This document shows, piece after piece, positions 1,210 to 64,000 of a stretch of DNA of 64,000 nt (position 1 is the first letter of the stretch; every line of letters starts with the position of its first letter). The notes below the pieces were generated by a model. The model saw nothing but the letters and a program-made list of their open reading frames with translations. It had not been told where the DNA came from and did not search any database. The position numbers and the translations under genes were made by a program. Source of the stretch: Mobula hypostoma (lineage: Eukaryota); contig NC_086097.1 of the NCBI RefSeq assembly GCF_963921235.1, positions 141,858,001-141,922,000 on the forward strand, written 5' to 3'.

Positions 1210-2140
1210 AAGAGATTCTGAAGATGCTGGAAATCCAGAATAACATACAAAATGCTGGAGGAAATCATCAGGTTAGGCAGCATCTATGGAAAGGAATAAG
1301 CATTTGAGATTTTGGGCTGAGATCCTTTATCGGGACAGGAAAGGAAGGAGAGAAGCCAGAATAAGAAAATGGTGAGGGCGGGGTGGTGTTGGTGGAAGGA
1401 GTACAAGCTTCCTGTACCAGCCAAGCTTGGGCGGTACAGTAGCATAGTGGTTAGCACAATGCTTTACAGTACCAGTGACCCAGATTCAATCTCCACAGCT
1501 GCCAGTAAGGAGTTTGTGTGTTTTCTGTGTGGATTTCCTCCGGGTTCTCCAGTTTTCTCCCACATCCCAAAGACATAATGGGTGGTAGATTAATTGCTCA
1601 TTGTAAATTGTCCCATGGTTAGGCTTGGATTAAATTGGGGAATTGCTGGGCAGTGCAGCTCAAAGGGCCTACTCTGTGCTGTATCTCATTAAATAAGTGA
1701 AAGGTGACAGGTGAGTGGGAGAGAGAGGATGAAGTGAGAAGCTGGGAAGTGATGGGTGGAAAAGATAAAGGGCTGAAAAAGAATCTAATAGAAGAGGAAA
1801 GTGGACCATGGGAAAAAGGGAAGGAGGAGGGCCCCCCACGGGGAGGTGATAGGCAGGTATGGAGAAGAGGTAAGGGGGAGTCAAGTTGCGGAATGGAAGA
1901 ACAGGGAGGGGGACCTACATCTTTGTTCTCTACCCACTTGCTCTCTTATCAGATTCCTCCTCCTTTAGCCCTTTTCCTTTTCCAGCTGGCATCTTCTAGT
2001 TTATTTTCCTTCCCTTCCCCCACCACCTTAATCTGGTTTCTTTCTTACCCCATCCTTTCCAGTCCAGATTACTGGTCTCAGCCGAAAATATTGACTGTCT
2101 AAATTCCTTCCCCCAGGTGCTATCTGACCTGCATTTCTTT
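1210..2140. mobile_element. Degenerate Penelope-like terminal-repeat fragments in inverted arrangement, split by a SINE
   Basis: Minus-strand copy (ACAAAATGCTGGAGGAA...GGCAGCATCTATGG, then purine-rich tract to about 1910) followed by a plus-strand copy (about 1915-2140) with a decayed CAGTC...GAAA...GACTG motif; same family as the GIY-YIG-bearing copies at 51.8 kb and 61-62 kb. Confidence 0.65.
1427..1697 (+). mobile_element. tRNA-derived SINE (HE1/V-SINE-like) with CR1-type tail
   Basis: A-box-like TAGCATAGTGG, decayed B box, central GGATTTCCTCCGGGTTCTCCAGTTTTCTCCCACATCCCAAAGAC, 3' AAGGGCCTACTCTGTGCTGTATCT and A-rich end. Confidence 0.8.
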
Positions 2141-4102: not shown

Positions 4103-5162
4103 AAGCATGAGAAATTTTGCAGATGCTGAAAATCTAAAGCAACACACAAAAAGTGTTGGAGGAACTCAACAGGTCAGACAGCATCTATGGAAATTAATAA
4201 GCAGTCGTCTTTTGGGCAGAGACCCTTCTTCAGGACCAGAACGGAAGGGGGGAAGATGCCAGAGTAAAAAGGTGAGAAGAGGGGAAAGGAGGATAGCTGG
4301 AAGGTGGAGCCAGGTGGGTAGGAAAGGTAAAGGGCTGGTGAGGAAGGAATCTGATAGAGTAGAGTAGACCAAAGGAGAAAGGGAAGAAGGAGGGGACCCA
4401 AGGGGAGGTGATTGACAGGTGAGAAGTTAAAGGCCAGAGTGGGGAATAGAAGAAGAGGGGAGTGGGAGGAAAAGTGTTTTTACCAGAGGAAGAAATTGAT
4501 ATTATGCTATCCAGTTAGAAGCTACCCAGATGGAATATAAGGTGTTGCTCCTCCATCCTAAGGGTGTCCACATCATGGCTTAAGAAGAGACCATGGACCA
4601 ACATGTCAGAACAAGAATGGGAATTAGAATTAAAGTGTTTGGCTACCAAGAAACTCCACTTTTGGTGGATGGAGCAGAGAAGTGGCCCCTCAGTTTATGA
4701 CTACTCTTACCAATGTACAGGAGACTGCATCGGGAGCACCAGACACAATAGATGACCACAGCAGATTCGCAGGTGAAGTGTTGCCTACCCTGGAAGGACT
4801 GTTTGGGGTCCTGAACGGAGGTAAGGGAGGAGCTGAATGGGCAGGTGTGGCACTTTGGCCCCTTTCAGGAATGAGTGCCGGGAGGAAGATTAATGGGGAG
4901 GGACGAATGGACGGGGGAATAACAGAGGGAGCAATCCCTGAGGAGAGAGGGAGGGGAGGTAAAGATGTGTTTGGTGGAAGGGTCCCTTTGGAGATGGTGA
5001 AAGTTGTGGAGAATGATGTGTTGGATGTGGAGGCTCATGGAGTGGTAGATAAGGACAAGAGGAACTCTTATCACTGTTTAGGCGGGAAGGCGGTGGGAAG
5101 ATGGGGTGAGCGTGGATGTTGAGGAAATGGAGGAGATGCAGGTAAGGGCAGCATCAATGATG
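4103..5162 (-). mobile_element. Penelope-like retroelement 3' fragment (RT C-terminus, GIY-YIG endonuclease remnant, terminal repeat)
   Basis: Minus ORF 4865-5074 RVPLVLIYH...IQHIILHNFHHLQRDPSTKHIF; GIY-YIG-region DNA homologous to 51990-52316; terminal repeat with decayed hammerhead motif at about 4202-4238. Confidence 0.85.
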
Positions 5163-20355: not shown

Positions 20356-20480
20356 TACAAACAAGAGAAAATCTGCAGATGCTGGAAATCCAAGCAACAC
20401 ACACAAAATGCTGGAGGAACTGAGCAGGCCAGGCCGCATCTATGGAAAGGAGTACAGTTGACAGTCGGCAGGACTGGAGA
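20356..20480 (-). mobile_element. Penelope-like terminal fragment with the hammerhead stem II deleted
   Basis: ACAAACAAGAGAAAATCTGCAGATGCTGGAAATCCAAGCAACACACACAAAATGCTGG... matches the other copies, but jumps GTTGACAG|TCGGCAGGACTGG, omitting stem II and GAAA. Confidence 0.8.
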
Positions 20481-30391: not shown

Positions 30392-30785
30392 CACAAACAA
30401 GAGAAAATCTGCAGATTATGGAAATCCAAGCAACACACAAAATGCTGGAGGAACTCAACAGGCCAAGCAGCATCTATGGAAAAGAGTACAGTGGACATTT
30501 TGGGCTGAGACCCTTCGGCAGGACTGGAGGGAAAAATGCTGAGTAGATTTTAAAAGGTGGGGTGGAGGAGAAGAGAGAAGCACAAGGTGATAGGTGAAAC
30601 CTGAAGGAGGAAGGATGAAATAAAGACCTGGGAAGTTGATTGGTGAAAGAGATACAGGGGGAGAAGGGTGAGCCTGAGAGAAGAGGACAGAAGGCCCTGG
30701 GGGAAAGAAAACGTCAGAGGAGCTCCTGAGGGAGGTGATGCCTGGCCTGCTGAGTTCCTCCAGCATTTTGTGTGTGTTGCTTGAA
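30392..30785. mobile_element. Short Penelope-like element with inverted termini
   Basis: Left arm CAAGCAACACACAAAATGCTGGAGGAACTCAACAGGCCAAGCA (about 30427-30470); right arm TGCCTGGCCTGCTGAGTTCCTCCAGCATTTTGTGTGTGTTGCTTG (30738-30783); decayed hammerhead motif at about 30489-30526 (minus). Confidence 0.8.
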
Positions 30786-34262: not shown

Positions 34263-35229
34263 GTGAAGGATCACAGAATCAAACCTATTGCTGCTTTGTT
34301 CTGCCCATATCACAAGTTTAAATCTGTGACTCAAGTGGTTGCAGATGCTGGAGCAGCACACTAAAAGCTGGAGGAACTCGGCAGGTCTACAGAAGAAATG
34401 TGCTGTGCCGAGACCCGTCAACTGGACTGAGAGAAAGGGGCCAGTATAAAAAGATGTAGTTAAAGGGGTGGAGTTAGAGTTGGTTGGTGATAGTAGATTC
34501 AGGTGAGGTGGTTGATAGGCAGATGGAGGCACAGAGAATGGGAATAACGTCAGAATCTGGGAGCACTTCTCTCCCTTTATTCTATGCTGTGTCTTCCTCT
34601 GCTTTCACATTCCATTATCATTAGCCTTTTGTCGCTTTTACCCATCACCTCTCAGCTAAGATATCATTTCGTATATTTATCTACATTTCACTGTCAAAAG
34701 TTTGTGATTTCAGCCTTAATTGGAATCCAGAAGGAATTCTGTTTCTCTTCATAGGGCTGCCAGAATATGGTTATCATTAGATTATTTGTTTATTAAAGAT
34801 GTAATAACTTTTTCTGCAGTAATAATATATGCACTTTTGTTATAGTTATTGTTGAATCCTTGTGGGACTAAATTTGATATCTGCCTGATTTTGTAAAATA
34901 ACTTTTTTCTCTAGTGTGCGTCATTGGATAGGTTAAACATGGCATTGCCAGAGCAACTTGCATTCAGTAAATACGGGGGCAAGTGTTATCTTCTCTGGTG
35001 TGTCTGTTTTTTTGTGTTAGCAGCTTTCATTGTCTCCATGGATCATCTATTTTGAAACTCTTAGACAATAATGAAATATATTTTGACACTATGGAATTTT
35101 ATTCCAAGTCCATTTGTGGCTCTGTTTCAGAGCTGTGATGTCATTTTGATTGTGTATTGATTGCTTCGATGATTTTGAATACCTAAATTTTTGTTGTAAG
35201 GAAACTCCACTATAAAAATGATTCAAGAT

Positions 35230-37403: not shown

Positions 37404-39842
37404 GCCTAATACATGGTGGGCCACTGCAACTCTTTTCACCCCTGTGTGCCCAGCTCCCACCTGGTCCTTCCTTTGCTCCCTTTCTCCGCCACCTCTCCTT
37501 TTCTTCTGCCTCCACCTCTTCGTATAATTTTACTAAACTGGTTTCTGTTGTTTCTTCCTGCGCACTTGCAATTTCAATTGCCTCTTGTTCCTCTGCTGCC
37601 TTATTTGCAGTAATGTCTGCCCTCGGAAGGACTGGAAAAACTTTATGTTCTGGAGACAAGCCATTCAGGATTGTTGTAGGGCCTGCCACTGTGGAATGCA
37701 GTCTCAGCATGGTCTTAAGGGCGGTATAGCCTGTTGTTAATGGATATGATCCACTGGGCTTAATTGGCTATATAGGCGAGTTAGCAGTGGCTGCAGTCTC
37801 TCTGAGTGTCCCCTGATGTTTTTGTTCCTTCACTATACCCTGGACAGCTGTCAGTGTGTCAGATTTTATAGGCTACTGCTTATGGGGTTTATGCAGGTCC
37901 CCATTTATTTTAATTGTGTTTATGTTTACTTCACTACAATATTGCTTGTGTCTAGCCCACACAACTGGGAACTGCTGGTTCCACCACAATCTTGGTGATT
38001 GGGGCAGCTGCGACTATGCTAGTCAGGTTGTGTATTCTGTTGGTTGTACCCGTTCGCTGCCCCTGACTGTCCATGTTATTTCTCCCTTTCCCAAATCGAT
38101 TACGGCCCCTGCTTCCCTTAGGATGTCAATTCCAAGGATGGTGCCCTCATTATTTGGACATACCCAGAAATACACTGGAAGCTGCACTCCCCCAATTTTG
38201 AGTATTTGCGACTTGCTTCTTTCTGCTTTTCACTTTTTCCTCCCACACCCCTAATAAAAATGGCCTGTCCGGTTATTGGCAAGGGTAGGTCTGCTATTGA
38301 TACCGATGCCCCTGTGTCCACTAACATACTGCATTGCCCGCCCCCCCCCAACAATGCTGTTGTGTACATCTGTGGGTCACCAGCGCTGGCAGTGGAGCTT
38401 GCCGCCACATCGTTTTCCTGTCCTAGGAGCCATCTTTTCTAGCTCTATAATCTGATCAGCAGCCAGATTGTTCAGACTGGGCACCGGTGGGGTGGGAGAT
38501 TGTGTGTCTGCTGTGATGTTCACCTGTTTTTCTTTCCTCTTTTTTTTTGGACAGTGCCTCCAACCATGTCCCAATAGGATGCACCTGTAGCATATCAACT
38601 CCTTGACCCTCCCACGTCTATTTCAGCAGTTCCTTGCTTCGAGCCTTGGTCGCCGGCAAACAAAACGAACTGTCTGGGACATCACAGATGCTGCATCCAC
38701 TATGGCCACATTGTGATCTCTCTTGTACTTTCTTTGGGTCTACCTCACTGGCCCACGAAACTATCGAAGAGTAGTTCGACCCCACTGTTATGCCTAAATC
38801 TAAAACTTCCTGGTGGGCTGAGCTCAGACCTTCCTTAAGCATTTTCAGGAAGACTTGGTCATCCCTCCCTGGATCATCCAACCTGGAAGACTCTTCATAC
38901 ACTCTGTTTATGTTCTGCATAATCCATGGCTGTCTCATTAGCTTTTTGAATCACTACCCAGTTACTCTCGTCTCCCCCCCCCACCCCCATCGCTGCTTCA
39001 CTTCCCCTTTAAAAAAGCAATATCTTTCTTCATTGCTGGCTTTCCCGGTAGTTGCCCAGGTACCATTCCGTGCCCCTTGGGCCATCCTGTCCCACATATT
39101 CCTCGGGCACTTTGCTTTTGCATACACATGTATATCTTTAGGGTGCATCTGGTGAATTTCAACCATTTCTTCAAGCTTATGCCAGAATTCTGAATTACCA
39201 CATGCGACTTTAAGTGAGGGCAACTCTGACAAAGTGCTCTGTTTCTTCCCGGGGGCGAAGGGCTTAAGAATAGTTGTAATCATTGTCAAGGGCTGGCTTG
39301 GATCATCAGGGTTCTCAGCCTGACGTTTCTTGATCTCAATAGGTGCCATCCTGACAGATATATCTGGGTAAAACCTCTCCCTGAAATACCTCCACATTAA
39401 TTCCCACACTACGCAAAATACCAGTTAAACAGCACATACTTAAAACGGCAGAGTATGTACTCCGCAATCTGCCACTTTTGAGCACCTGAACTCATGATGC
39501 CTGCAGTATTCCTTTGCATCACACTTGCAAAATGTATATACTAAAATGCAGCTCCCCGAATGAGTATACATGCCCCACTCTGGCGTCCCGAACCGTGTTT
39601 ACGGTAAGCACCCTTTGCAACTGGTGGCTTCGTCTCACCCAATTAACACGTTTCCTTTTTTTACATAAACACATACATGCACACACACTACTTTTATATC
39701 TACCAGTACAGCTGTCTGCGTTTGTGATACCTCATGTTCCCGTGTACCACCGATCTGAACAGATCCAAGTGTGAGTGCTATTTTAGAAAATACTCACCCA
39801 CTTAGACTGAAAATCACTGGCCACACAATGGGTCACGAAGGT

Positions 39843-47065: not shown

Positions 47066-47207
47066 ACACCGTCGCTTGGAGTGGAAATGGGCTGTGGAAA
47101 GGGCAGCAATTGTCAACCGCTGGACATGGTTGCAAGCTCAGGTGTCTGACCTAGAATACCGAATACGGCAGCAGACAGACATATACAGACAGATCCGTGC
47201 AAACAAG
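47066..47207 (+). CDS. KANSL1: Internal coding exon (142 bp) of KAT8 regulatory NSL complex subunit 1
   Basis: Acceptor TTTGTTCACAG| and donor AAG|GTAAGT. Translates (x)[47 protein letters not shown], matching recalled human KANSL1 [43 protein letters not shown] better than KANSL1L. The ORF-track extension past 47207 is intron. Confidence 0.93.
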
Positions 47208-49039
47208 GTAAGTGCAGAGATTGACACGGGGCCAGAAGGTGTTTTTCTGCTTAAGTGTAGGACAATGTCATCTATTTACACATCATGCACTATTAATTCA
47301 AAATTTAGAAATGTTGTAGATCAAGGGGATGTGTTGTTATTTTAGCAACGTTTTCCAACTGGGACGTTTATTTTGTTCTTTGATGACACTAATATTTTTG
47401 CACGGGAGGGATAGTAATACATTATTACATTACTTTAAATATTAAACACCTCCAATTACATTCAACTTAGTGAATTTTGTGTCTACCAGAGAAAGTATTC
47501 AGATTTAGTAACAAATGAAAGTTCAGAACTATAAAAAGAAAACCATATGCTGTTAAGTGTTTTCAGTTATTACATCATAGTAACTTTCTCGGGTATCAAA
47601 ATGATCTTAGCCTTTTTCAGTGCCAAGTTTGCATTTTGATTGCTAAAGTGGAGATAACTGGAATGAATTACAAACATTAGGGCGAATTTCTCCAATGATT
47701 TTAATCCCCATCTCAGTTTTCTATGTTAATGCAATTTGGCTTGATATTAAATCTTTGGTACTTGTAGAATAACATCTTTTCAAACTGAAGTTTTAAGTTT
47801 CAGAACTGCCTTATCAAATGCCTCCCAATGTAAAACAAAATTTAAAAATCACTTATTTCTGCTTACATAACATTCATTAAATTGCTGACCTTCACTAACT
47901 TTTGGTTTTACTTCTTCTTGACTGTATTCTCAAATATTTCCTTGGCCTAGTCCTATATCATTCCTCCAACTTATTAGTCATAGTCATACTTTATTATTGA
48001 ATGTGTTCCTTCTCTAGTTCTGCTGTTTTGGAATTGAACTTATTTGCCGTTGTGAAGGTCTGTAACATTAGAATTCTGTTTATAAATTCCTTTTCACAGT
48101 GACTTTTTCCTCTGTTAAGGCATTCTTAAATATATCATCTTGATCAAGGTGTGTATAGCTGCCTTGATATAGTATGACCTTAATTTTGACAAAATTGCTT
48201 TAAAAAAGAGCCTTGTAATAATTTAGTCTGTTAGAATTAAAATATTTTTGTTTCAAGAGCAATCATTCAGCCTTAGTACCCCTGATACCAAGATTTTTCC
48301 ATATTTAAATAATTTCCCATAATTAAATTTGTTTGTGCTTGATGTATATTATATAATGTTGCAGTTGCATTTAATCTCTGTTTACATGATCCTTTCAAAC
48401 TGGCCAATAAGTCTGTAAACCTTAAGTTACTATTTTTGTCAATTTTCATGTATTTAGCCAGCTACCTTTTGAATATATTGTTGAATCTCCCTCAATTTTT
48501 ATTCCTGATGATGCATTTCAAGCAAGAACCACTTTCTGTGTGACGAAGTATCTTCTCATCTCTGTTTAGTACCCTGCCGACAAATGTGTTTGTCTTTTCA
48601 TATTAACTCTTTAGCTTTCTTAAAAAAAGGATTTAGATATGCATAATGCTTACATGATTACCTAAATAATGGCCTAGAATTTTTCAACTACTGCAGAGGT
48701 AATGTGATTTAACTTTATTACAAAATAATGTTTTGAAGGGAATTGGAGTTTTAAGAATTCCACGAAGACTATGATAGACTTCTGTGCCTAGTGTGTTCTT
48801 ATTGTGGACATGGGGATTTGATAGGAGAAAAACATGCAGCATATGCCTAGCTGCTACTTCTGTCACTTGGATCTTGGCATGTTGTCACAGCACTCGCTTG
48901 TTTCATTTTCTCCTGTCCTACTTTTCACACCAGAGCTGAAATTATTGTTTATAGCTTTAATACAAAGAAAAGGCCTTGTCCTACAGGAATGCCTTGGTTC
49001 CTGTTTGCTCTAGAGTTTTGCCTCATGACTAAACCTCTA

Positions 49040-50254: not shown

Positions 50255-50900
50255 TTCTTCTCATTTTCTCAGTTTTTCTCTCTCTGGGTTTACTTTGTTC
50301 CCTTTCTTTTCTTTCTCTCATTCCTTTTCTTTCACACCTTTCTCCTTCCAGCTCACATTCTTTATCTTTCTTCTCCCTTTTCTTTGAGTTTGTGCATCTT
50401 GATCTTGAGAAGGTCCACTTAGTTCACTGGAGTATTCTTAGTAATCCTTCCATTGCTCCTTTTCTAATCTGATCTCCCTTGGTTTCTTCATCTATAGCAT
50501 TCTCTGTTGTCATTTCTCAATTGTTTCCTTTTTGGCCTTGCATTCATCCTGCTAGGCTTGGTCTTTGCATCTATTTTTGCAAGCAGCTCTTTGTCTCCCA
50601 CTTGAAATTCATGCAATAACCTTAATGCACGCAGAGTAGATTGTGTTTATTTATACTCACAAAAGCTGAACGCATGCAACTTTCTGAAGCTTTGAACTCT
50701 TCCAGCTTAAAACCAAGCCACATTTCACAAACAACTGCCTGATTAACATATCAGAAGCTTTCTCAGATATGTTGCTCACAAAAACTATTGTGGTCGGATC
50801 ATTGCTTTCATCAGTTTCATGATTCCTCTGAGCACCATGGTCCTCCTTCGGTCCAATATGCTTTCTAACCGGAAGCGCAGCGGTTGACACACATCTGTTT
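50255..50900 (-). pseudogene. RBM25: Processed (intronless) RBM25 fragment embedded in the Gypsy element
   Basis: Minus strand gives VRKHIG...PTTIVFVSNISEKASDMLIRQLFVKCGLVLSWK, then in shifted frames AFSFCEYK*TQSTLRALRLLHEFQVGDKELLAKIDAKTK...DEETK..QIRKGAMEGLLR.YSSELSGPSQD and an RE/K-rich tract. This matches the recalled RBM25 RRM and following region; stops and frameshifts are present. Confidence 0.9.
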
Positions 50901-51821
50901 GCCCTTTGGGGAACAGTGCATGGTGTACAGCATGGAGACGGTTGTGGCATCATCCAGTACCTTAATTTACCTTTAGTTGATTCTATTGTAGGGGATGTGG
51001 CATGCAAATTGTCAATGGATATCCAATCAAGTTATAATTGTTTCAGCCAATTAGGGCCCCATAATACTGATCCTCCTGTTTTTCCCACATACAAGCCCAA
51101 CGTGGCTTGTTGGTTGCTGTAATTCATTATTATGAATGTCACTCCCAGAGTTATCTTTTCCTCAGCATATGTTCTTTGTTAGATATCTAGCCCTAAGGCT
51201 TTAGTTTAGTGTTTTTGAAATACTGTTCAAACTTGTCTTGTGGAATGACCATAATAGCTGAGTCAGTGTCCAATTCCATTTTAATTCATTTGCTGTTAAT
51301 TTTTGCTGTAAGCCGTAGTGCTTGTCTCCTGTTAGTTTTCACATTGTACGTTAATCTCAAGGCCGCCCTTTCCTGTGCCACATTCATCATTATCAGATTT
51401 TCCAGTAACGGCATGAAGATTAGTGCTCTTTTTGAAACTGCAACTTGACTTTTTATATTTTACTTTTCCCTGGGCAGTCTATTTATTTTTGTCTGTTGAA
51501 CATGCTCTTTGTATGTGTCCTACTTTTTTGTATTTTCTGCTAGATTCGCCTTTAAACCTGCGTTGGTCAGCTGTATGTGAGCCCCTGCCACAACGGTAAT
51601 GCAATTTGTTCAGCCAAGCAGACCTCCGTCTAGTTGCTGCAGATTTGTTCACACACACTTTCATTCCCGACTGCAATTCAATTGCGTCCCTCTGTTTCCG
51701 TTGAAACAGCAATTTCAACTGCTGTTTTAAATATGAGATGTGCTTCAGTTAGGAGCCACTTTTGATGCTTTCTTGTAAGGTTCTTAAAAAAAATAATAAT
51801 AAATGATCTCTCGGTGTCTCA

Positions 51822-52753
51822 CCCTCTCTCTCTGCTTTCCACAGGGATCGCTCCCTACACGACTCCCTTGTCTATTCGTTCCCCCCATCCCTCCCCACCG
51901 ATCTCCCTCCTGGCACTTATCCTTGTAAGCGGTACAAGTGCTACACATCCTCCCTCAATACCATTCAGGGCCCCAGACAGTCCTTCCAGGTGAGGCGACA
52001 CTTCACCTGTGAGTCAGCTGGAGTGACATACTGCGTCCAGTGCTCCCGTTGCGGCCTTCTATATACTGGTGAGACCCGATGCAGACTGGGAGATCGTTTC
52101 GCTGAACACCTACGCTCTGTCTGCCAGAGAAAGCAGGATCTCCCAGTGGCCACACATTTTAATTCCACGTCCCATTCCCATTCTGATATGTCTATCCACG
52201 GCCTCCTTTACTGTCAAGATGAAGCCACACTCAGGTTGGAGGAACAACACCTTATATTCTGTCTGGGTAGCCTCCAACCTGATGGCATGAACATTGACTT
52301 CTCAAACTTCCGTTAATGCCTCACCTCCCCCTTGTACCCCATCCGTTATTTATTTATTTATATACACACATTCTTTTTCTCTCTCCCCTTTTTCTCTTTC
52401 TGTCCCTCTCACTATACACCTTGCCCATCCTCTGGGCTTCCCTCCTCCCCTTCTTTCTTTCTCCCTAGGCCTCCTGTCCCATGATCCTCTCATATCCCTT
52501 TTGCCAATCAACTGTCCAGCTCTTGGCTCCATCCCTCTCCCTCCTGTCTTCTCCTATCATTTGGGATCTGTCCCTCCCCCTCCCACTTTCAAATCTCTTA
52601 CTAGGTTTTCTTTCAGTTAGTCCTGACGAAGGGTCTCGGCCCAAAACGTTGACTGTTCCTCTTCCTAGAGATGCTGCCTGACCTGCTGCATTCACCAGCA
52701 ACTTTTATGTGTGTTGCTTGAAATTCCAGCATCTGCAGATTTCCTCGTGTTTG
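51822..52753 (+). mobile_element. Penelope-like element 3' portion (GIY-YIG endonuclease and terminal repeat) inserted in Gypsy gag
   Basis: ORF 51990-52316 FTCESAGVTYCVQCSRCGLLYTGETRCRLGDRFAEHLR...EEQHLIF.LGSLQPDGMN; imperfect TSD TGATCTCTCGGTGTCTCA (51804-51821) and TGATCTCTTGGTGCTCA (52756-52772). Confidence 0.92.
52618..52655 (+). ncRNA. Minimal type I hammerhead ribozyme motif (mutated copy)
   Basis: TAGTC-CTGACGA-A-GGGT CTCG GCCC-(A)AAA-CG-T(T)-GACTG: stem I, intact CUGANGA and stem II; GAAA and the GUC cleavage triplet are altered by CpG-type transitions. Confidence 0.75.
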
Positions 52754-53158
52754 TGTGATCTCTTGGTGCTCATTACCAAGCTGCCAATACTCAGACTTCT
52801 TCAATTTATCCATGTATGCTGAGATTGACTCCCCTTCCTTTTGGTTCCACTTATGACACCTGAAGTATTTTGCAATCAACAATGGATTCAGTTCCAGATG
52901 TTCCTGCATTACTTCTACTATATCAGCAAAGCTCATTTCAGCTGGTTTGGTTAGAGCAGTTAAACTTTGAAGCTAATTGTCTGCCTTTAAACCCAATACA
53001 CTTGACAAAATTGGTACTCATTTCTCATTGGCTATTTCATTTGCTTCAAAATACTGTTCAATTAGCTCAGTATACATGAGCCAGTTACCGCAGTTGAGAG
53101 TTCAAACATGACTAATGTTTCAACATAGCCAGCCATTTCAGTTCTTTTTTAATGATTA

Positions 53159-54380
53159 CTAGAAAACAGGGTGACCTGTTGGGGCACCCTTTGAGAGAAG
53201 GGTAGTGCAGTCTGATGTGACCAGAATGAACATTAAATTTTCCAGAATGCTATTGGTATCGCTTTGCTTTGGAAACTGTGTAGAAAACCTCAGTTTATTA
53301 AAGAAGAACGACGCGTAGCAAAGCAAATATCGCTCCTCCTCGTTTAACGAAGGACACTTTTGATGGCATCATTTCTGGTTTCGCTGTCACGCTTGTGCCT
53401 CTCGTTGTCATTCTGGAGACGTGCAGTCCTTTCATCCCCCGTCTCTTCATCTCTTCTGCTGTTTGTTCTTTTTCTCTGATTCTGGAGGTGTGCATTTCTC
53501 AGCCTCTTTGTCTCTTCCTCTCTCCTCCTTCTGTGCTTGTTTTTGTCATTCTGGAGACGTGCAGCCCTTTCATTTCCCATCTCTTCTGTTTGTTTGCCTC
53601 TGATCCTGGAGATGTGCATACTTCTCCTTCTCTATCTCTTCTTCTCTCATCTTTTTTTGTCCTGACTCTTTGATCCTGGAGTCGTGCATCCCTGGCCTCA
53701 TCCGATTCTTGTCCTCTCCCTGTCCTTGCTGCTTCCCGATGATGTTTGGCATCATCTCGTGACCATAATGTCCCCCTTCCCTTCCCATGTGGCATAATTA
53801 GGCTGACTTTTTTTTTTAACCCTAGTGCTGGATAGAAGATACAAAGCAGTAACACCAAAAAGGATGCTGATTATTCTTGATGATGTGGTTGGCGCTGTCC
53901 TAAATGGACGTGATAATAGTCACCGCTGTTCTTTGACTGCAGCAAAGGGCTTTATGGGTGTCTCGAAGTACGTCATTACAATAAGATTTAATTATCTCTT
54001 ATTGATGAGTGGCAGTTTGATCTGTTCCAATCCTGCACATGCTGATGATGATTAGCAGAATGTGACCCCTCGAAATAGAGCTGCCCTGCCTTTTTGCTCC
54101 GGTAGGTGTTGCTGCTGAGGCTGGCCATGCACATGTGTCGGGCTGTGGCGTCTCGATTTCCATGATGGCCGATCAGGTCTTGGGTGAAAGCTAGCCTGTT
54201 GATTTTTGGTGAATGAGCAATTTTATACGAATATATAACCCTGAACTTTGCCTGCATTCTGTCAGTTAGCGCATTTTAATTAGATGTAGCCAAAAATAAG
54301 TGCCGCTGTAATGCAGCATTTGTGCTGATTGGAGGTCACAAACAGACAGACAGAGCATGAGAGTTTTAGTAGTATACAGA
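53159..54380 (-). mobile_element. Non-autonomous Helitron (1222 bp) with decayed N-terminal STPR-like repeat ORF
   Basis: Minus strand begins A|TCTGTATACTACTAAAA...TCTGTCTGTCTG and ends with hairpin GGGTG...CACCC then TGTTTTCTAG|T. Internal 69-nt repeats (53411, 53480, 53549) encode ET.EER.ARLQ.D-type units; ATG at 53795. Confidence 0.88.
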
Positions 54381-57300
54381 TCCCTGCAAAAGCATCATCC
54401 CAATTCACACCCGCAAGTTCTAGCCTTTTAGCCTCATAATTTGCCCTTCCCCAATTAAAAATTTTCGTGTCCTCTCTGATTCTATCCTTTTCCATGATAA
54501 TGTTAAAGCCCAGGGAGCGTTGGTCACTGTCCCCCAGATGCTCACCCACTGAGAGATCTGTGACCTGACCCGGTTCGTTACCTAATACAAGATCTAGTAT
54601 GGTATTCCCCCTAGTCAGCCTGACAACATACTGTGACAGGAATCCGTCCTGGACACACTTCGAACCATAGAAACTACAGCACAGAAACAGGCCTTTTGGC
54701 CCTTCTTGGCTGTGCCGAACCATTTTCTACCTAGTCCCACTGACCTGCCACGGACCATATCCCTCCATACACCTCCCATCCATGTATCTGTCCAATTTAT
54801 TCTTAAATGTTAAAAAAGAACCCGCATTTACCACCTCGTCTGGCAGCTCATTCCATACTCCCACCACTCTCTGTGTGAAGAAGCCCCCCCCTAATGTTCC
54901 CTTTAAACTTTTCCCCCCTCACCCTTAACCCATGTCCTCTGGTTTTTTTCTCCCCTTGCCTCAGTGGAAAAAGCCTGCTTGCATTCACTCTATATATACG
55001 CATCATAATTTTATATACCTCTATCAAATCTCCCCTCATTCTTCTACGCTCCAGGGAATAAAGTCCCAACCTATTCAACCTTTCTCTGTAACTGAGTTTC
55101 TCAAGTCCCGGCAACATCCTTGTAAACCTTCTCTGCACTCTTTCAACCTTATTTATATCCTTCCTGTAATTTGGTGACCAAAACTGAACACAATACTCCA
55201 GACTGGGCCTCACCAATGCCTTATACAACCTCATCATAACATTCCAGCTCTTATACTCAATACTTTGATTAATAAAGGCCAATGTACCAAAAGCTCTCCT
55301 TACGACCCTATCTACCTGTAACGCCACTTTTAGGGAATTTTGTATCTGTATTCCCAGATCCCTCTGTTCCACTGCACTCCTCAGTGCCTTACCATTAACC
55401 CTGTATGTTCTACCTTGGTTTGTCCTTCCAACGTGCAATATCTCACACTTGTCTGTATTAAACTCCATCTGCCATTTTTCAGCCCATTTTTCCAGCTGGT
55501 CCAAGTCCCTCTGCAGGCTCTGAAAACCTTCCTCACTGTCTACTACACCTCCAATCTTTGTATCATCAGCAAACTTGCTGATCCAATTTACCACATTATC
55601 ATCCAGATCATTGATATAGATGACAAATAACAATGGACCCAGCACTGATCCCTGTGGTACACCACTAGTCACAGGCCTCCACTCAGAGAAGCAATTCTCT
55701 ACCACCACTCTCTGGCTTCTTCCATCGAGCCAATGTCTAATCTAATTTACCACCTCTCCATGTATACCTAGCGACTGAATTTTCCTAACTAACCTCCCAT
55801 GCGGGACCTTGTCAAAGGCCTTACTGAAGTCCATGTAGACAATATCCACTGCCTTCCCTTCATCCACTTTCCTCGAAAAACTCCCAACAGATTGGTCAAA
55901 CATGACCTACCACGCACAAAGCCATGTTGACGCTCCCTAATAAGCCCCTGTCTATCCAAATGCTTGTAGATTCTGTCTCTTAGTACTCCCTTCAATAACT
56001 TACCTACTACTGACGTTAAACTCACCGGCCTATAATTTCCCGGATTACTTTTCGATCCTTTTTTAAACAACGGAACAACATGAGCCACTCTCCAATCCTC
56101 CGGCACTTCATCCGTAGACAGTGACATCTTAAATATTTCTGCCAGGGCCCCTGCAATTTCAACACTAGTCTCCTTCAAGGTCCGAGGGAACACTCTGTCA
56201 GGTCCCGGGGATTTATCCACTTTAATTTTCCTCAAGACAGCAAGAACCTCCTCCTTTTCAATCTGTACAGTTTCCATGGTCTCACTACTTGATTCCCTCA
56301 ACTCCATAGATTTCATGCTAGCTTCCTTAGTAAATACAGACGCAAAAAACCTATTTAAGATCTCCCCCATTTCCTTTGGTTCCGCACAAAGCCGACCACT
56401 CTGATCTTCAAGAGGACCAATTTTATCCCTTACAATCCTTTTGCTCTTAATATACTTGTAAAAGCTCTTTGGATTATCCTTCACTTTGACTGCCAAGGTA
56501 ACCTCATGTCTTCTTTTAGCCCTCCTGATTTCTTTCTTAAGTATTTTCTTGCACTTCTTATACTCCTCAAGCACCTGATTTACCCCCCGTTTCCTATACA
56601 TTTCATACAACTCCCTCTTCTTCTTTATCAGAGTTGCAATATCCCTTGAGAACCAAGGTTCCTTATTCTTATTCAATTTGCATTTAATCCTGACAGGAAC
56701 ATACAAACTCTGCACTCTCAAAATTTCCCCTTTGAAGGCTTCCCACCTACCAATCACATCTTTGCCAGAGAACAACCTGTCCCAATCCACGCTTTTTAGA
56801 TCCTTTCTCATTTCTTCAAATTTGGCCTTCTTCCAGTTCAGAACCTCAACCCCAGGACCAGATCTATCCTTGTCCATGATCAAATTGAAACTAATGGTGT
56901 TATGATCACTGGAACCAAAGTGCTCCCCTACACAGACTTCTGTCACTTGCCCTAATTTGTTACCTAACAGGAGATCCAATATTGCATCCCCTCTAGTTGG
57001 TCCCTCTATATATTGATTTAGAAAACTTTCCTGAACACATTTTACAAACTCTAAACCATCTTGACCCCTAACAGTATGGGAGTCCCAATCAATGTATGGA
57101 AAATTAAAATCCCCTACCACCACAACTTTATGTTTCCTGCAGTTGCCTGCTATCTCTCTGCAGATTTGCTCTTCCAAGTCTCGTTGACTATTGGGTGGTC
57201 TGTAATACAATCCCACTAATGTGGCCATACCTTTCCTGTTTCTCAGCTCCACCCATAAGGACTCAGTAGACAAGCCCCCTAATCTGTCCTGCCTGAGCAC

Positions 57301-58600
57301 TGCTGTAATATTTTCCCTAACAAGCAATGCTACTCCCCCACCTTTCATTCCTCTGCCTCGATCACATCTGAAACATCGGAACCCTGGAATATTAAGCTGC
57401 CAATCCTGCTCCTCCTGTAGCCAAGTTTCACTAATTGCTACAACATCATAATTCCACGTGTCAGTCCACGCCCTCAACTCATCTGCCTTCCCCGCAATAC
57501 TCCTAGCATTGAAATATATACACCTCAGAAGATTTTTACCACCACTCACAACCTTTCTATCAGCAGATTTGCTTAAACTTGCAACATCATTTATTTTCAC
57601 CCCATCCACACTGTCAGCTCTGGCACTCTGGTTCCCATCACCCTGCAAATTTAGTTTAAAGCCTCCCCAATAGCACTAACAAACCTCCCTGAAAGGATAT
57701 TGGTCCCCCTGTGGTTCAAGTGTAACCCATCTCTCTTGTACAGGTCCCACCTGCCCCAGAAGAGGTCCCAATGATCCTGAAATCTGAAACCCTGCCCCCT
57801 ACACCAGTTCCTCAGCCACTTGTTCCTCCTCCAGAGCATCCTATTCCTACCCTCACTGGCACCTAGCACAGGTAGCAATCCTGAGATTACCACCCTTGAG
57901 GTTCTGCTTTTCAACTTCCTACCAAGCTCTCTATACTCACTGTCCAGGACCTCTTCACTCTTCCTTGCTATGTCATTGGTACCAATGTGCACCACGACAT
58001 CTGGCTGGTCACCCTCCCACTTCAGAATGTCATGCAATCGATCAGAAACTTAACAAACTCTGCCTCGTCTAAACCATTGGAACTAATCAGGTGCCAATCA
58101 ATATTAGGGAAGTTAAAGTCACCCATGATAACAACCCTGTTATTTTTGCACCTTTCCAAAATCTGCCTCCCAATCTTCCCCTCTGTATCTCTGCTGCTAC
58201 CACGGGGCCTATAGAATACTCCCAACAGAGTAACTGCTCCCTTCCTGTTCCTGACTTCTACCCATACTGACTCAAAAGAGGATCCTGCTACATTACCCAC
58301 CCTTTCTGTAGCTGTAATAGTATCCCTGACCAGTAATGCTACCCCTTCCCCCCTTCCCTCCATCCCTTTTAAAGCACTGAAATCCAGGAATATTGAGAAT
58401 CCATTCCTGCCCTGGTGCCAGCCAAGTCTCTGCATCATAATTCCATGTATGTATCGAAGTTCTCAGTTCATCACCTTTGTTCCTGATGCTTCTTGCATTG
58501 AAATAATGCACTTTTGCCTTTCTAGCGTACTACCTTTACACCCTTTATTCTGTTTCTCTTTCCTCAAAGCCTCTTTATATGTTAGATCTGGCTTTACTCC
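54381..58600 (-). mobile_element. Older CR1 (endonuclease region) split by the young CR1; pieces 58047-58600 and 54381-54661
   Basis: ORF 58022-58438 ends ...GDFNFPNIDW...DEAEFVK and ORF 54280-54723 resumes CVQDGFLSQYV; ACTT occurs at both junctions. Confidence 0.85.
54662..58046 (-). mobile_element. Young CR1 LINE: ORF1 SGNH-esterase C-terminus and nearly full ORF2 (APE and RT) with a frameshift near 55870
   Basis: VVVHIGTNDI...DGLHLN (esterase); YFNARSI, ISETWL, GDFNFP, SSDHN (APE); RT motifs SGVPQGSVLGP and KFADDTK; 3' UTR nearly identical to the 26408-28818 copy. Confidence 0.96.
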
Positions 58601-60349
58601 ATGCTCTCCTCTGTGCCCCGTTATTTTGCCTTCTCCCCATAACCTTTCACACCTATCAACCTTAGCCTTAAATATACCTTCACAGCCACCCATGGCAACA
58701 AATTTTGTGGATTCATCACCCTCTGGCTAAAGAAATTCCTCCTCATCTAAATGGATGTCCTGTATTCTGAGGTTGTTCTCTCTGGTGCTAGACTCCCTCA
58801 GTATAGGAAACATCCTCTCCATACCCGCTCTATCTCGGCCTTTCAACATTCGATTGGTTTCAATGAATCCACTCCTCCCTTCATTCTTCTAAATTCTGAC
58901 GAGTACAGGCTCAGTGACATCTGTTGTGCATTTAATATTTCAGTAATATCTGAGTAATCTTGTAAATATGTTGTTTCATTTAGCAATGAAATATAAAAGC
59001 CAGCAGCCACAAACCAGCACTTTGAATGAATATAATAGAAAATATGAATTTGTGAAGGTGGAAAATATTGAAAAGTTGAACAGTGTTTACACAATGTAAT
59101 CCTGGAGAAATGAGGCAAGATTATTTCTTCATCCAGATGGTTGAAAAATATTTAAAAGCAAATATACAGATTGATAAAATGAAAGAGAATTAAACAATAC
59201 TTACAGCAAGTTAGCAAAGGTTTGATGACTTGAATGCACCATTTTCAGGGATCTACAAATTAAATAATATTCCTACTCTTATGTCTAGCCTTCGGTTTCT
59301 TTTTCTTCTCTGCATTCTTTGCTCCAGCTGTTTTGATATTTTGTTTGGAATGCAAGTAATCGGTCCTGTTGGTGTTTCCAAAAGTCCCTTCTTCCCATTT
59401 AAAAAAAAAATAGGCTTTCTCAGTGTAAGACTAGTACAGGACAATCATCCTTTATGATGCTGTTAGCCAATTGACAGAGGCTGAGTCCTTAGCCTGGATT
59501 TAGCAGTCATGGAAAGACTACAAAATAAACTTAGTTTGTAGTAGTTCTCCCAGTGGGAATGTGGAAATAGATGGAGAATTATCAAAGTGAGGCTCAACCC
59601 CAACCCACAGCAACAAACATTCAAGGGAAGTTTTTGCAGTACTGTTGAGCTGCAGTAGCAGCTGTCAGCTGTCTCATATATGGATAGCTCATCTTGTTAG
59701 GGGTGTTGTTTGGCTGGCTGTCAGTGAACTGCCAGAAGGAGGGAAAGGGGAGAGGTCAGAATCTAAAAGGATTATCATTTAAGTAGGGAATTGAGAATTT
59801 CACTTTGGAGGGTTGTGAGTATGAACGGGAGGCAGTGAATAGAGCAAGTCTCATTGCGTATAAGTGTCACTGTGAAAGATTGAGAGTTAGAGCGAGTTCT
59901 GTGTGAGAACTGGAAAATTTGAAAAGAGCAAGTCTTGTTAATGAGTTTCACTGGGGCCAATAAAAAGAAGTTAGGCTTAAGTGGAGTGGTCATTGTTGGA
60001 GTGGAAGCAGAGATGCATTTTGGGTATGTTTCCTTCTCTTTATCATTGTTTGAGTTTCACTTGCATAAATCGGGACTTGGACCAAAGATAGAACTGAAAA
60101 GAGTTGAGTTTCACTTACAGGAACTTAGAGTAAAGTCAGCTAGCTTTTAGTTAATAGGTGATTGGCTAATTTGCTAAATATTAGCAGCCAGTAAAAAGAA
60201 ACTGGGGCAAGTGGAGTGGCCATCTTGAGAGGGGTTGTTTTCTAGTCAAAATGCTGCAGGTTGTCAAAGTGCGGACTTTGGTGTAAAGGGGAAACAACAC
60301 TAGTTAAGGTAAGGGTCTCCTTTTTCTCTCAAAGCGCTTTTAGACAATG

Positions 60350-60830
60350 ACAGGTGAGTTCACTGATGGTATGCTCCTTTGCAATGTGGAATTGCGGGGA
60401 TGCTGTCAGAGAGGCTCCTTATAGATCACATGATGGCCCTAGAGCTGCGTATAGATTCACTTTGGAGCATCTGCAATTCAGAATATTGTAGATATTACAT
60501 TTAGTGAGGTGGTCACACTACAGTTTTAGGGAAAGAAAGGGTGACCCAACAGGCAGAGCAGTAGCAAGAAGATACTGTTAGGAGATCCTTGTGATCATCT
60601 TGCTTTGAAACAGATGTACTGCTTTGAATACTGTTGCAGTGATGGCTTATCAGGGAAGGTAGCAATAGGGAAATATTTCATGGTGAGGGAAATGGACAGG
60701 AGCTTCTGTAGTCACAAATGGGACTCCTGCATTGATGTGTTGACTCCCAAATACAAGGGTTAGGGATATCTCAGAGTGGCCGCAGGGCATTTACAGTCCT
60801 CAATAGGGAATGATTGTGAAGACCTTCCTG
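60350..60830 (+). mobile_element. Highly decayed CR1 ORF1 region
   Basis: DNA resembling C..C.MW, LELRIDSL.SI and FSEVVT and the start of the esterase domain; no intact ORF. Confidence 0.45.
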
Positions 60831-61182
60831 AATGTTGACATGAAAATTGCGATAATCATGGATTAGTTCTTTGACTAAATCCCTGTGCAGACTGGGGTCA
60901 ATCAAGTTCTCTGCTATTGCACCTTCCCTCTTGATCTTTATTGTGCATTCTTGCCTGTTGGCTCTAATATGGTTCCCTCTCAAGGCTGTTAATTTGCATT
61001 TTGATTCTGAAAATTGTCAACCTTTGCAACATCAGAATCAGAATTACTCCAACTTTAAGTAATTGCCTCTGTACTATTCCAATGTGTTCTTGTAGCTACA
61101 CTCCAATCCAGGCATATCCTGGTTAACCTCTTTCCTCATTCCCCCTGTAATGCACCAACCAAAAGTATACAATTCTCCCAAG

Positions 61183-62606
61183 CAACACACACAAAATGCT
61201 GGTGGAATGCAGCAGGCCAGGCAGCATCTATAGGAAGAAGTACAGTTGATGTTTCAGGTTGAAACCCTTCATCAAGACTCATGGAAAAAAGAAATAGAGA
61301 TTTGAAAGTGGAAGGGGGAGGGATGAAGCGAAGAGCTGGGAAGTTGATTGGCAAAAGGGATACAAGGCTGGAGAAGGGGGAGTATCATGGGACAGAAGGC
61401 CTTGGAAGAAAGGAAGAGCGAGGGGAACACCAAAGGAAGATGGAGAACAGGCAAGGAGTTATTGTGAGAGGGAAAGAGAGAAAAAAAAATTAGGGGTGGG
61501 GTAAGAAGGGGAGGTGGGGCATTAACGGAAGTTAGAGAAGTCAATGTTCATGCCATCAGGTTGGAGGCTGCCCAGATGGACTATAAGGTGTTATTCCTCC
61601 AACCTGAGTGTGGCTTCATATTGACAGTAGAGGAGGCCATGGATTGACATATCGGAATGGGAATGGGATGTGGAATTAAAATGTGTGGCCACTGGGAGAT
61701 CCTGCTTCCTCTGGCGGACAGAGCGTAGGTGTTCGGCAAAGCAGTGTCTCAATCTGCGTCGGGTCTCACCAATATATAGAAAGCCACACTGGGAGCACCG
61801 GGCACAGTATATCACACCAGCAGACTCACAGGTGAAGTGTTGCCTCACCCGGAAGGACTGTCTGGGGCCCTGAATGGTGGTGAGGGAGTAAGTGTAAGGG
61901 CAGGTGTAGCACTTGTTCTGCTTACAAGGATAAGTGCCAGGAGGGAGATCGGTGGACGGCAGATTGGGAGACCGCTTCACTGAACACTTATGCTCTGTCT
62001 GCCAGAGGAAGCAGGATCTCCCAGTGGCCACACATTTTAATTCCACGTCCCATTCCCATTCTGATATGTCAATCCATGGCTTCCTCTACTGTCAAGATGA
62101 AGCCACACTCAGGCTGGAGGAACAACACCTTGTATTCCATCTGGGTAGCCTCCAACCTGATAGCATAAACATTGATTTCTCTAACTTCCATTAATGCCCC
62201 TCCTCCCCTTCATATCTCATCCCTATTTTTTTCTCTCTCTCCCTCTCACAATAACTCCTTGCCTGTTCTCCATTTTCCTCTGGTGCTCCCCTCCCTCTTT
62301 CTTTCTTCCAAGGCCTTCTGTCCCATGATACTCCCCCTTCTCCAGCCTTGTATCCCTTTTGCCAGCTCTTCCCAGCTCTTGGCTTCATCCCTCCCCCTCC
62401 TGTCTTCTCCTATCATTTTGGGTCCCCCACCCCCTCCCATTTTCAAATCTCTTGCTGTCTCTTTTTTCCGTGAATCCTGACCAAGGGTCTCGACCCGAAA
62501 CGTCGACTGTGCTTCTTCCTACAGATGCTGCCTGGCCTGCTGTGTTCCACCAGCATTTTGTGTGTGTTGCTTGAATTTCCAGCATCTGCAGATTTTCTCG
62601 TGTTTG
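61183..62606. mobile_element. Penelope-like insertion with inverted architecture (minus arm to about 61955, plus arm about 61956-62606) inside a CR1 remnant
   Basis: Both arms encode the GIY-YIG C-terminal region (ORFs 61591-62046 minus with IYC...YIGET, 61934-62194 plus); 13-bp direct repeat CAATTCTCCCAAG at 61170-61182 and 62607-62619; CR1 LQLYITFVRPHLG continues across the site. Confidence 0.92.
62472..62509 (+). ncRNA. Minimal type I hammerhead ribozyme motif (G8 mutated)
   Basis: GAATC-CTGAC(C)A-A-GGGT CTCG ACCC-GAAA-CG-TC-GACTG: perfect stem II, intact GAAA, palindromic ACGT stem III and GUC site; CUGANGA altered to CUGACCA. Confidence 0.78.
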
Positions 62607-64000
62607 CAATTCTCCCAAGTGTGGTCTAACAAAAGTTATATATAGCTGCAACTCGATTTTCCTAATTTTATACTTTAATGCATCCACTGATGAAGACAAA
62701 TATTCTGAACATCATCTGTATCATGCTGTATACTTGTGTTATTGCTTTTTCAGGGAGCAAAGTGCAATACCTGCATGCTGCACTAATTATTGAAGTTGGG
62801 ATGACCTTGATGCTAAACCTTAGGCAATATGATCATGTTTTCTGTTTTTACTATAAATTACTTCCAGTCTTAATTGGAAGTTTATTGGAGGCAAGGTGTA
62901 GCATCCCAGCAAGAAAGTTTGGAAAAATTTGTCAGGACATTAATTTATTATTTTTTGCACTAATCTTCACTGAAATGGCTTTACAGTTATGTTTACTTGG
63001 ATCTGGGCTTGTATACCATTATGAAGCAAACATAAGGTGGAGCCATATTTCATAAGGCAATGAATTTGAAGGTGCAGTCAATTCTATTTAAAGTCAAGGG
63101 CTTTGCGAACAAAAGGGCCTCGTGTAATGGTTGGTGCTGCTCTGTGCCGCCTTCATGAAGTTGCTGTGCAGTGTAGATCATGCCTATTAAGTGTCTCCAT
63201 GGATAGTATCACGAAGTGTACAAAAGTGTGTTTTAGTTGCTTTTGGCCTGTAGGGATAGTGTTGGGAACAGGAGAGTTAGGGGACTATATTTGAAGACAG
63301 AAATGTACTGGAGTCAGAGGTCAAACTGAAGTCTAGGCCTCCTCTCTGCACTTAAAGGCCAGCAATGTGGATGAGTGACAGAAGGACCGTGGTGGGATGT
63401 TGGTCTGCAGATCACTGAGGGTGAGGGCTGGTGGCCCCTCTCTCCAACCCAGTGAGTCATTGGCAAGTTCTGGGATTGGAGTTCTGTGTTGGCAGGAGGC
63501 ATGAGAGATGGTGAGAGATAAGTTTGAGAATCGGTGTGTCCAGCGTTCAAGGACTGGAGTTTGGATCCTCATTCATCATTTCGGAGAGGCCTGAGGTTGA
63601 TATCAAAGATGTAAGCTCGAACGTTGGTCTGAGTCTGTAAGTTGAAGCCTGATGGCTGGAGCTCTGAGTCTGCAAACCCACTGGGACAGTTGAAGCCCAT
63701 TGTCTGTGAATCCACATCTACTGGAGATGACCAATCCTGGGGTTGGAGCAATGTCCATGTGTGGGTCAGTGGGAGGAGTGGGGCTTATTTTGGTGCTTGT
63801 TATATCCTGTTTTGTGTTGTTCTGCCAAGCAGTGTGGGCAAGCCTTATTGGCATCAGAATACATGGCAATACTTAAGAGATATCCCCAGCACATACTTAA
63901 ATTTGTTGGTTGATAATGCAAATGATGTATTTCACTTTGTTTTGATGTACATGTGATAAATGCATTTAATCTAAATTTGGCCTGATGCTTGTTGGCCAGT

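What the first reader, a model, noticed from the sequence alone, without database searches (positions are those of the whole stretch)
52618..62509. Minimal hammerhead ribozyme in the abundant Penelope-like terminal repeat
Seen: copies at about 1300(-), 2060(+), 4202(-), 30489(-), 52618(+), 61243(-) and 62472(+) give the consensus CAGTC CTGANGA A GGGTCTCGRCCC GAAA CG TC GACTG. This reads as stem I, CUGANGA, an extra A, stem II, GAAA, a palindromic ACGU in place of stem III and a GUC cleavage site. Known: PLEs carry minimal type I hammerheads thought to act as dimers. Inference: the consensus is catalytically competent, and this high-copy repeat has seeded hammerhead motifs genome-wide. Every copy here has at least one core lesion, mostly CpG transitions. 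Plus-strand copies lie sense within the presumed KANSL1 pre-mRNA.
Basis: partly seen in the sequence, partly recalled or inferred. Interest (0 to 1): 0.7.

Follow-up and report, generated by a model that had tools for sequence, protein, structure and literature searches.

The report
Ray Penelope retrotransposon hammerhead relics
The motif is real but of a known kind: it is the tiny hammerhead RNA motif in the end repeats of a very abundant Penelope-like jumping gene of a ray, and the copies in this window are mutated and likely dead; genome-wide, short copies begin at the motif's front edge about ten times more often than at its cut site, so the RNA that gets copied is likely uncut.

Summary
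All seven copies sit at the stated coordinates, and each has a core lesion. A variant closing stem II with G-U occurs 39,183 times and is the form in 20 of 20 long-ORF copies. Three fetched loci are complete Neptune/Nematis-type Penelope-like elements: a ~1,040-aa RT + GIY-YIG frame between direct repeats, each holding the motif. It meets the published minimal-hammerhead features (PMC4209133). The motif is conserved between subfamilies (3 of 38 changes, against 19 of 35 in the flanks) but decays neutrally after insertion. Corrections: the host gene is a KANSL1 paralogue; about half the lesions are CpG type; the 61243 and 62472 copies are two arms of one insertion; no strand bias was seen. Extra: 5' junctions cluster at the motif's front edge (1,946 and 1,952 at two bases) and are rare at the cut site (87). 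That fits uncut templates, as in PMC11167929. The scan noted this before on other DNA. Cleavage itself is untested.

The parts
52618..52655 (+). Minimal hammerhead relic (G12A, C17U); predicted cut after 52650
51818..52756 (+). 5'-truncated Penelope-like copy: linker and GIY-YIG end (open frame 51807-52316), pLTR, hammerhead, tail ending 106 nt past the cut site; 87% identical to the intact young element; 13-nt target-site duplication with one mismatch at 51804-51816 / 52756-52768
61179..62607 (.). One head-to-head insertion: left arm 61179-61955(-) ending +70, right arm 61959-62607(+) ending +104; 13-nt target-site duplication at 61170-61182 / 62607-62619
61243..61280 (-). Hammerhead relic in the left arm (C3U, G16.2A, G1.1A)
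62472..62509 (+). Hammerhead relic in the right arm (G8C, stem I mismatch)
30489..30526 (-). Hammerhead relic in an older pLTR piece 30394-30617 (A6C, G12A, 15.2 and 1.1 changed)
4202..4238 (-). Hammerhead relic in an older copy 4110-5151 that also carries an endonuclease-region fragment (4504-5151)
1301..1338 (-). Heavily decayed hammerhead relic (10 substitutions)
2060..2097 (+). Heavily decayed hammerhead relic
20455..20476 (-).
34403..34429 (-). Extra partial relic (5' half only)
47066..47208 (+). The only host coding exon in the window (KANSL1-family paralogue); the rest of the window is intron

Best explanation
The motif is the minimal type I hammerhead in the terminal repeat of a recently active Penelope-like retrotransposon (likely Neptune clade), scattered as mostly truncated copies, and the copies in this window are mutated relics that likely do nothing. 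Shown: complete elements consist of a direct repeat with the motif, a ~1,040-aa RT / Zn-linker / GIY-YIG frame, and a second direct repeat, with 3,503-3,518 nt from cut site to cut site. Shown: the motif is held nearly constant between subfamilies and decays neutrally once inserted. Inferred mechanism: the element's protein binds its RNA, cuts both DNA strands, and starts reverse transcription about 65 or about 102 nt downstream of the hammerhead. It copies through the still uncut motif and often stops early. This leaves stubs or two cDNAs joined head to head, so every insertion deposits a hammerhead. Inferred: in the parent RNA the motif cuts only as a two-copy dimer (ACGU pairs with ACGU) and probably only with the element's protein, as a late or occasional processing step that insertion does not require. 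[quoted passage not shown]
For: Exact counts of 6,803 and 39,183, controls 0. L043-L045 have two direct motifs around frames of 1,039, 1,043 and 1,041 aa. Pfam RVT_1 E 7.6e-5 and GIY-YIG E 0.0043. DKG, YIDD, CX4CxxC linker, GVIY-YIG and CCHH motifs are present. Majority sequences of the young (39 copies) and older (57 copies) groups differ at 3 of 38 motif positions, all structure-neutral (2.5 C/U with G, N7, 11.1 C/U with G), against 19 of 35 in the two flanks (Fisher p 2e-5). Non-CpG core positions decay at 66/918 and tail positions at 166/2228, p 0.82. 3' ends fall at +59 to +73 in 13 of 30 and +95 to +109 in 16 of 30 loci, like the two RT starts in PMC11167929. 5' junctions by 13-nt window: 26 of 100 at the front edge, 6 of 100 around the cut site, 7 of 100 just upstream (counted by eye; p 2e-4 and 5e-4). 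Single-base junction counts: 1,946 and 1,952 against about 39,183 copies, versus 87 at the cut site against about 24,285. 18 of 30 front-edge loci have no inverted partner, and many show a target-site duplication abutting the junction.
Against: No cleavage or RNA-end data exist for this family; the runs found are contigs only. Both Pfam hits are under the curated cut-offs, and Rfam does not detect even an intact copy. No two-sided covariation separates the subfamilies: U-A in place of C2.1-G1.1 appears in only 4 of 102 copies, and G1.1A is also a CpG change. The motif is not significantly more conserved than the downstream tail (3/38 against 16/83, p 0.18), so selection could act on a larger RNA signal. 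The youngest subfamily replaces the canonical G10.1-C11.1 pair with G-U, and its upstream bases are predicted to sequester CUGACGA. The cut site has 87 junctions against 17 at one control base three positions further on, so a small cleaved fraction is not excluded. About 21 of those 87 are explained by stem I microhomology (counted by eye). There is no cap-G excess at the front-edge junctions: G 38, T 38, C 24 of 100 (by eye).
Confidence: 0.88

Rival explanations
1. Rolling-circle model: the two hammerheads cut out a 3.5-kb unit, it is ligated into a circle, and RT copies the circle through the re-formed motif, giving more-than-unit insertions.
For: Proposed in PMC4209133. L044 and L045 carry more than 1 kb of the next unit upstream. 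Insertions contain the motif plus downstream tail, which a cut linear RNA would lack.
Against: A circle has no 5' end, so it does not by itself explain the pile-up at the front edge. In vitro, catalytic mutants insert normally and uncut RNA is the main substrate (PMC11167929).
Confidence: 0.2
2. The front-edge pile-up comes from RT release or microhomology joining at the motif's hairpins, not from an RNA 5' end.
For: Several junctions use self-complementary bases of the motif. An alternative hairpin covers positions just upstream of and inside the core. The pile-up spans about 10 bases.
Against: The equally self-complementary 3' half of the motif is not enriched. 18 of 30 front-edge stubs have no partner arm to anneal to.
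Confidence: 0.35
3. Intact sense-oriented copies cut host pre-mRNAs and are selected against, or have been co-opted by the host.
For: An estimated 95,000 intact motifs (56,000-150,000) exist genome-wide. The host gene has 9 sense against 18 antisense pieces.
Against: Three genes together give 22 against 28 (p 0.48), and intact copies 4 against 5. Core decay equals flank decay. Monomers were inactive in PMC4209133. All window copies carry lesions.
Confidence: 0.05
4. The motif is no longer catalytic in the young subfamily and is kept as a protein-binding, promoter or splice signal.
For: G-U closing pair; off-folds favoured by 4 kcal/mol; tail similarly conserved. PMC8557442 notes that Naiads thrive without hammerheads.
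Against: Every catalytic base is retained in both subfamily majorities while the 14-nt spacer next to it changes at 7 positions.
Confidence: 0.12

Closest known systems
Minimal hammerheads (min-HHR) in pLTRs of metazoan Penelope-like elements (Cervera and De la Pena 2014, PMC4209133)
   Same: Type I, no helix III, palindromic 15.2-16.2, extra base between 9 and 10.1, short helix I, one motif in each flanking repeat, most copies solitary or in opposite-strand pairs.
   Different: Helix II is 4 bp, not the 7-8 bp described for Schistosoma. The commonest form closes helix II with G-U. At least 45,986 exact copies, against about 4,000 (coelacanth) and 9,000 (Xenopus) there, counted with a different method. 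No shark or ray term was found in the one supplement file searched (file 1 not searchable).
Neptune/Nematis clades of EN+ Penelope-like elements (as defined in PMC8557442)
   Same: Single ORF, RT followed by C-terminal GIY-YIG with CCHH, CX2-5CxxC linker, DKG motif, partial tandems, inverted 5'-truncated arm, 30-40-nt optional tail.
   Different: No tree against reference clades was built. Neptune rather than Nematis rests on the vertebrate host.
Poseidon element PAc of Anolis (Frangieh et al. 2024, PMC11167929)
   Same: Two RT start sites downstream of the hammerhead that define the tail; both strands extended; uncut RNA as template.
   Different: PAc is Penelope/Poseidon (no Zn linker) and its ORF starts inside the hammerhead. 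Here the first in-frame ATGs lie downstream of the cut site. A 5' pile-up at the motif's front edge is not described in the text I read.
Non-LTR retrozymes (bioRxiv 10.64898/2026.07.22.740005)
   Same: PLE-derived hammerhead-bearing repeats, also reported from one chondrichthyan.
   Different: Retrozymes are tandem arrays of non-coding units. These copies are dispersed truncations of a coding element.

Membership tests
min-HHR of PLEs | C3UGANGA9 and G12AAA15.1 boxes with U16.1-H17 | tested here: met
   not met in any window copy
min-HHR of PLEs | Helix I of 4-5 bp and helix II | tested here: met
   pair counts in 102 copies
min-HHR of PLEs | Extra nucleotide between 9 and 10.1; palindromic 15.2-16.2; no helix III | tested here: met
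   A in 98 of 102 copies (table offset by one position); C-G is the commonest 15.2-16.2 pair
min-HHR of PLEs | G10.1-C11.1 closing pair | tested here: inconclusive
   G-C in 48 and G-U in 43 of 102 copies; G-U in 20 of 20 long-ORF copies; met by the older form only
min-HHR of PLEs | Located in both pLTRs of a PLE | tested here: met
   L043, L044, L045
min-HHR of PLEs | Self-cleavage as a dimer or with protein | not testable with these tools
   folding energies only
Rfam hammerhead families | Score at a family's cut-off | tested here: not met
   no hammerhead hit
EN+ PLE | One ORF with RT then GIY-YIG, DKG and CCHH motifs | tested here: met
   (Pfam hits below curated cut-offs; motifs present)
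EN+ PLE | Partial tandems, inverted 5' arm, tail | tested here: met
Neptune/Nematis | CX2-5CxxC linker between RT and EN | tested here: met
   residue 908 of the L045 frame
Neptune | Placement in an RT phylogeny | not tested
   no named reference sequences were fetched
Non-LTR retrozyme | Tandem array of non-coding units with two or more hammerheads | tested here: not met
   window copies are dispersed or inverted
KANSL1 orthologue (host gene) | Best match of mammalian KANSL1 in this genome | tested here: not met
   P0103 scores 522 bits on the C91 locus against 234 on the host locus

The most novel reading that the evidence does not exclude
In this ray Penelope-like family the template RNA begins at the first bases of the hammerhead's stem I (an initiator-like TTAGTCC or CCAGTCC). 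Only transcripts started there lack the upstream bases that sequester the core, so the start site switches the ribozyme on. The tens of thousands of stubs would be a genomic map of that RNA's 5' end and would show that insertion uses uncut RNA in vivo.
Probability: 0.3. Interest if true: 0.5.

Novelty: new member of a known kind. Interest (0 to 1): 0.24.

Why it matters
The motif and its setting were described in 2014, so the finding as stated is ordinary. Two things give it modest value. First, the role of hammerheads in Penelope-like elements is still called unclear (PMC8557442); this genome gives a large natural read-out that templates are uncut, plus a sharp prediction for where the RNA starts. 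Second, it holds young intact-ORF elements of the Zn-linker type, whereas the only element reconstituted in the papers I read is a Poseidon. It has no demonstrated bearing on the host gene.

Tried and rejected
Rfam scans gave no hammerhead hit. Pfam did not recognise the short window endonuclease fragments, and PDB had no match to the full ORF. No RNA holder was listed on record. The contigs laid cannot show ends or strand; they listed no end pile-ups and no clear splice joint into the motif, and repeats swamp the signal, so this is no evidence either way. A splice acceptor just before stem I, as in Drosophila Penelope, was considered: the sequence has a pyrimidine tract and two AGs, but the 30 front-edge loci share no common upstream exon, so it is unsupported. 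A cap-derived extra G at front-edge junctions was not seen. Cleavage in a shifted register at the front edge was rejected because stem I cannot pair there and the older subfamily lacks the triplet. I first read the copy at about 20460 as truncated at the cut site; it is an internal deletion. The first per-position table was offset by one column and was redone. A dimer between the window's 61243 and 62472 copies is excluded because they lie on opposite strands. The paper on PLE hammerhead dimers (PMC5785218) was not held.
Full report
Observation. Read as a type I hammerhead, the motif has stem I (5 bp), C3UGANGA9, one extra A, stem II (4 bp, CUCG loop), G12AAA15.1, C15.2 G16.2 U16.1 C17, the cut site, and the stem I 3' strand. 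Each window copy has at least one catalytic-core lesion. CpG-type changes are 22 of 52 substitutions in the ten window pieces. Rfam does not detect the motif in the window or in an intact copy.

What carries it. Directly upstream of the 52618 copy is an open frame for the end of a GIY-YIG endonuclease. A genome search with it gave 150 scored matches out of 205,364 candidates. I fetched the 20 with the longest open frames. Five have frames over 1,000 aa. Three (L043, L044, L045) have direct repeats on both sides, each with an intact motif, 3,503-3,518 nt apart. The protein hits RVT_1 and GIY-YIG in that order, both below the curated cut-offs, and carries the DKG, YIDD, CX4CxxC linker, GVIY-YIG and CCHH motifs. 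By the definitions in PMC8557442 (passages read) this is an endonuclease-bearing Penelope-like element of the Neptune/Nematis type. I built no tree. All 20 long-frame copies close stem II with G-U, and that form has 39,183 exact matches.

Abundance and selection. In 66 arbitrarily placed 10-kb stretches a profile found 110 pieces, which extrapolates to about 580,000 genome-wide. Of the 63 that span the motif, 18 were intact, giving about 95,000 (56,000-150,000). 'Intact' means all core bases, a 15.2-16.2 pair, and at least 3 of 4 pairs in each stem. Of 173 pieces in all 1,064 kb examined, 102 span the motif; 39 young and 57 older ones were split by one tail base and 6 were left unassigned. Their majority sequences differ at 3 of 38 motif positions, none of which breaks the structure, against 19 of 35 in the flanks (p 2e-5) and 16 of 83 in the tail (p 0.18). 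Within inserted copies, non-CpG core and tail positions decay alike (7.2% and 7.5%). The motif is thus maintained in the source lineage and is neutral afterwards. Two-sided covariation is not convincing.

Host gene. The exon at 47066-47208 matches a 1,269-aa 'KANSL1-like' protein of a stingray at 100% and other rays at 98%, so the genome is a ray's by inference. The gene runs on the plus strand across the whole window. Spliced contigs in three related runs contain exactly this exon. Mammalian KANSL1 matches a different locus better, so the host is a paralogue. Across the three KANSL-family genes there are 22 sense and 28 antisense pieces, with 4 and 5 intact. That shows no bias, but the sample is small. 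The copies at 61243 and 62472 are two arms of one insertion with a 13-nt duplication; they end 70 and 104 nt past the cut site.

How it likely works. PMC4209133 (parts 1-2 of 4 read: abstract, results, discussion; one supplement file searched, one not searchable) reports no monomer cleavage and weak dimer cleavage for such motifs. PMC11167929 (parts 1-2 of 4 read, covering the main text; supplements not read) reports for an Anolis Poseidon element two internal RT start sites, extension on both strands, cleavage only with the element's protein, and uncut RNA as the main substrate. This family shows matching genomic signatures. 3' ends cluster at +59 to +73 (13 of 30) and +95 to +109 (16 of 30), and head-to-head arms are common. 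Folding puts the hammerhead monomer (-7.0 kcal/mol) above an off-fold (-11.0), and the double hammerhead (-11.5) above a rod duplex (-30.3), which fits a need for help from protein. In the young form, 11 upstream bases form a hairpin over CUGACGA (-12.4); the G-C copy tested did not.

Where insertions stop. Among the first 100 listed young copies per search, 5' junctions fell in the 13 bases ending stem I's 5' strand in 26 cases (one more ambiguous), in the 13 bases around the cut site in 6, and in the 13 bases further upstream in 7 (counted by eye; two arms of one insertion count twice in a few cases; all from the start of one contig). Whole-genome single-base counts agree: 1,946 and 1,952 at stem I positions 2.4 and 2.3, and 787 at C3, against about 39,183 copies. 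The cut site has 87 and a control base three further on has 17, against about 24,285 copies. After allowing for an extra letter filter the difference is about tenfold. Of 30 loci with a front-edge junction, 18 lack an inverted partner (two of them are duplicates of one site), and many have a target-site duplication next to the junction. The simplest reading is run-off at the RNA's 5' end, at a sequence that fits an initiator consensus (recalled, not from a call). RT release at a hairpin remains a serious rival. No cap-G signature or shared upstream exon was found. In Drosophila Penelope the start lies 46 bp upstream of an intron (PMC2377424, passages) whose end maps at helix I (PMC4209133), so the arrangement there differs.

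Known or new. The motif class, its place in pLTRs and its genome-wide spread in vertebrates are published. Five literature searches returned no paper devoted to ray or shark PLE hammerheads or describing the front-edge pile-up. A 2026 preprint includes one chondrichthyan in a retrozyme survey (passages; supplements not seen). PMC6155905 and PMC6765202 were seen as passages only; the dimer paper PMC5785218 only as a title in a reference list. Eight earlier notes of this scan describe the same family, six of them the same pile-up, two in this genome. I had recorded the pile-up before reading them, and they are not independent support.

Verdict. A real, new member of a known kind. The window copies are likely dead relics. 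Interest is low, raised a little by the testable 5'-end map and by the intact young elements.

Noticed in passing
L043:minus strand, L044:4372-7503, L045:4378-7503, L046, L047: Five copies with open frames over 1,000 aa, about 97-98% identical in DNA to L044: the family was active recently and may still be.
   Followed up: partly
G000:C1:141781312-141952267 (window exon 47066-47208): The genome has three KANSL1-family genes (C1, C91, C18). The host is a 1,269-aa paralogue whose exon also matches 'KANSL1-like' proteins of sharks, a caecilian, coelacanth and marsupials.
   Followed up: partly
window 26410-28814 and 54663-57066: Two young LINE copies (RT frames of 746 and 628 aa; CR1-like by recall) in opposite orientation, 94-97% complementary over more than 2 kb and 26-28 kb apart, on either side of the host exon; they could pair in the pre-mRNA.
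   Followed up: no
window 7993-10676 (-): Broken non-LTR element with RT (Pfam RVT_1 E 7e-14) and a C-terminal restriction-like endonuclease region (clade resemblance recalled, not tested).
   Followed up: partly
window 38118-39424 (-) and 21227-22068 (-): Fragmented frames with a DTG protease-like motif and a CWxC envelope-like motif, possibly old LTR or retroviral remnants (motifs recalled; no Pfam hit).
   Followed up: partly
window 50657-51031 (-): Frame with a weak RRM hit (E 0.008), probably a processed-pseudogene fragment of an RNA-binding protein.
   Followed up: partly
L163-L192: Stubs of about 90-140 nt (motif plus tail only) with target-site duplications of roughly 8-15 nt; they look like SINEs but share ends with the parent element's RT start sites.
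   Followed up: yes
L027/L028 (G000:C1:11077235 and 11078523): Two intact motifs on the same strand 1,288 nt apart, a rare setting where a cis dimer could form.
   Followed up: no
window 53394-53711: Four diverged direct repeats of about 55 nt (family D14), unexplained.
   Followed up: no
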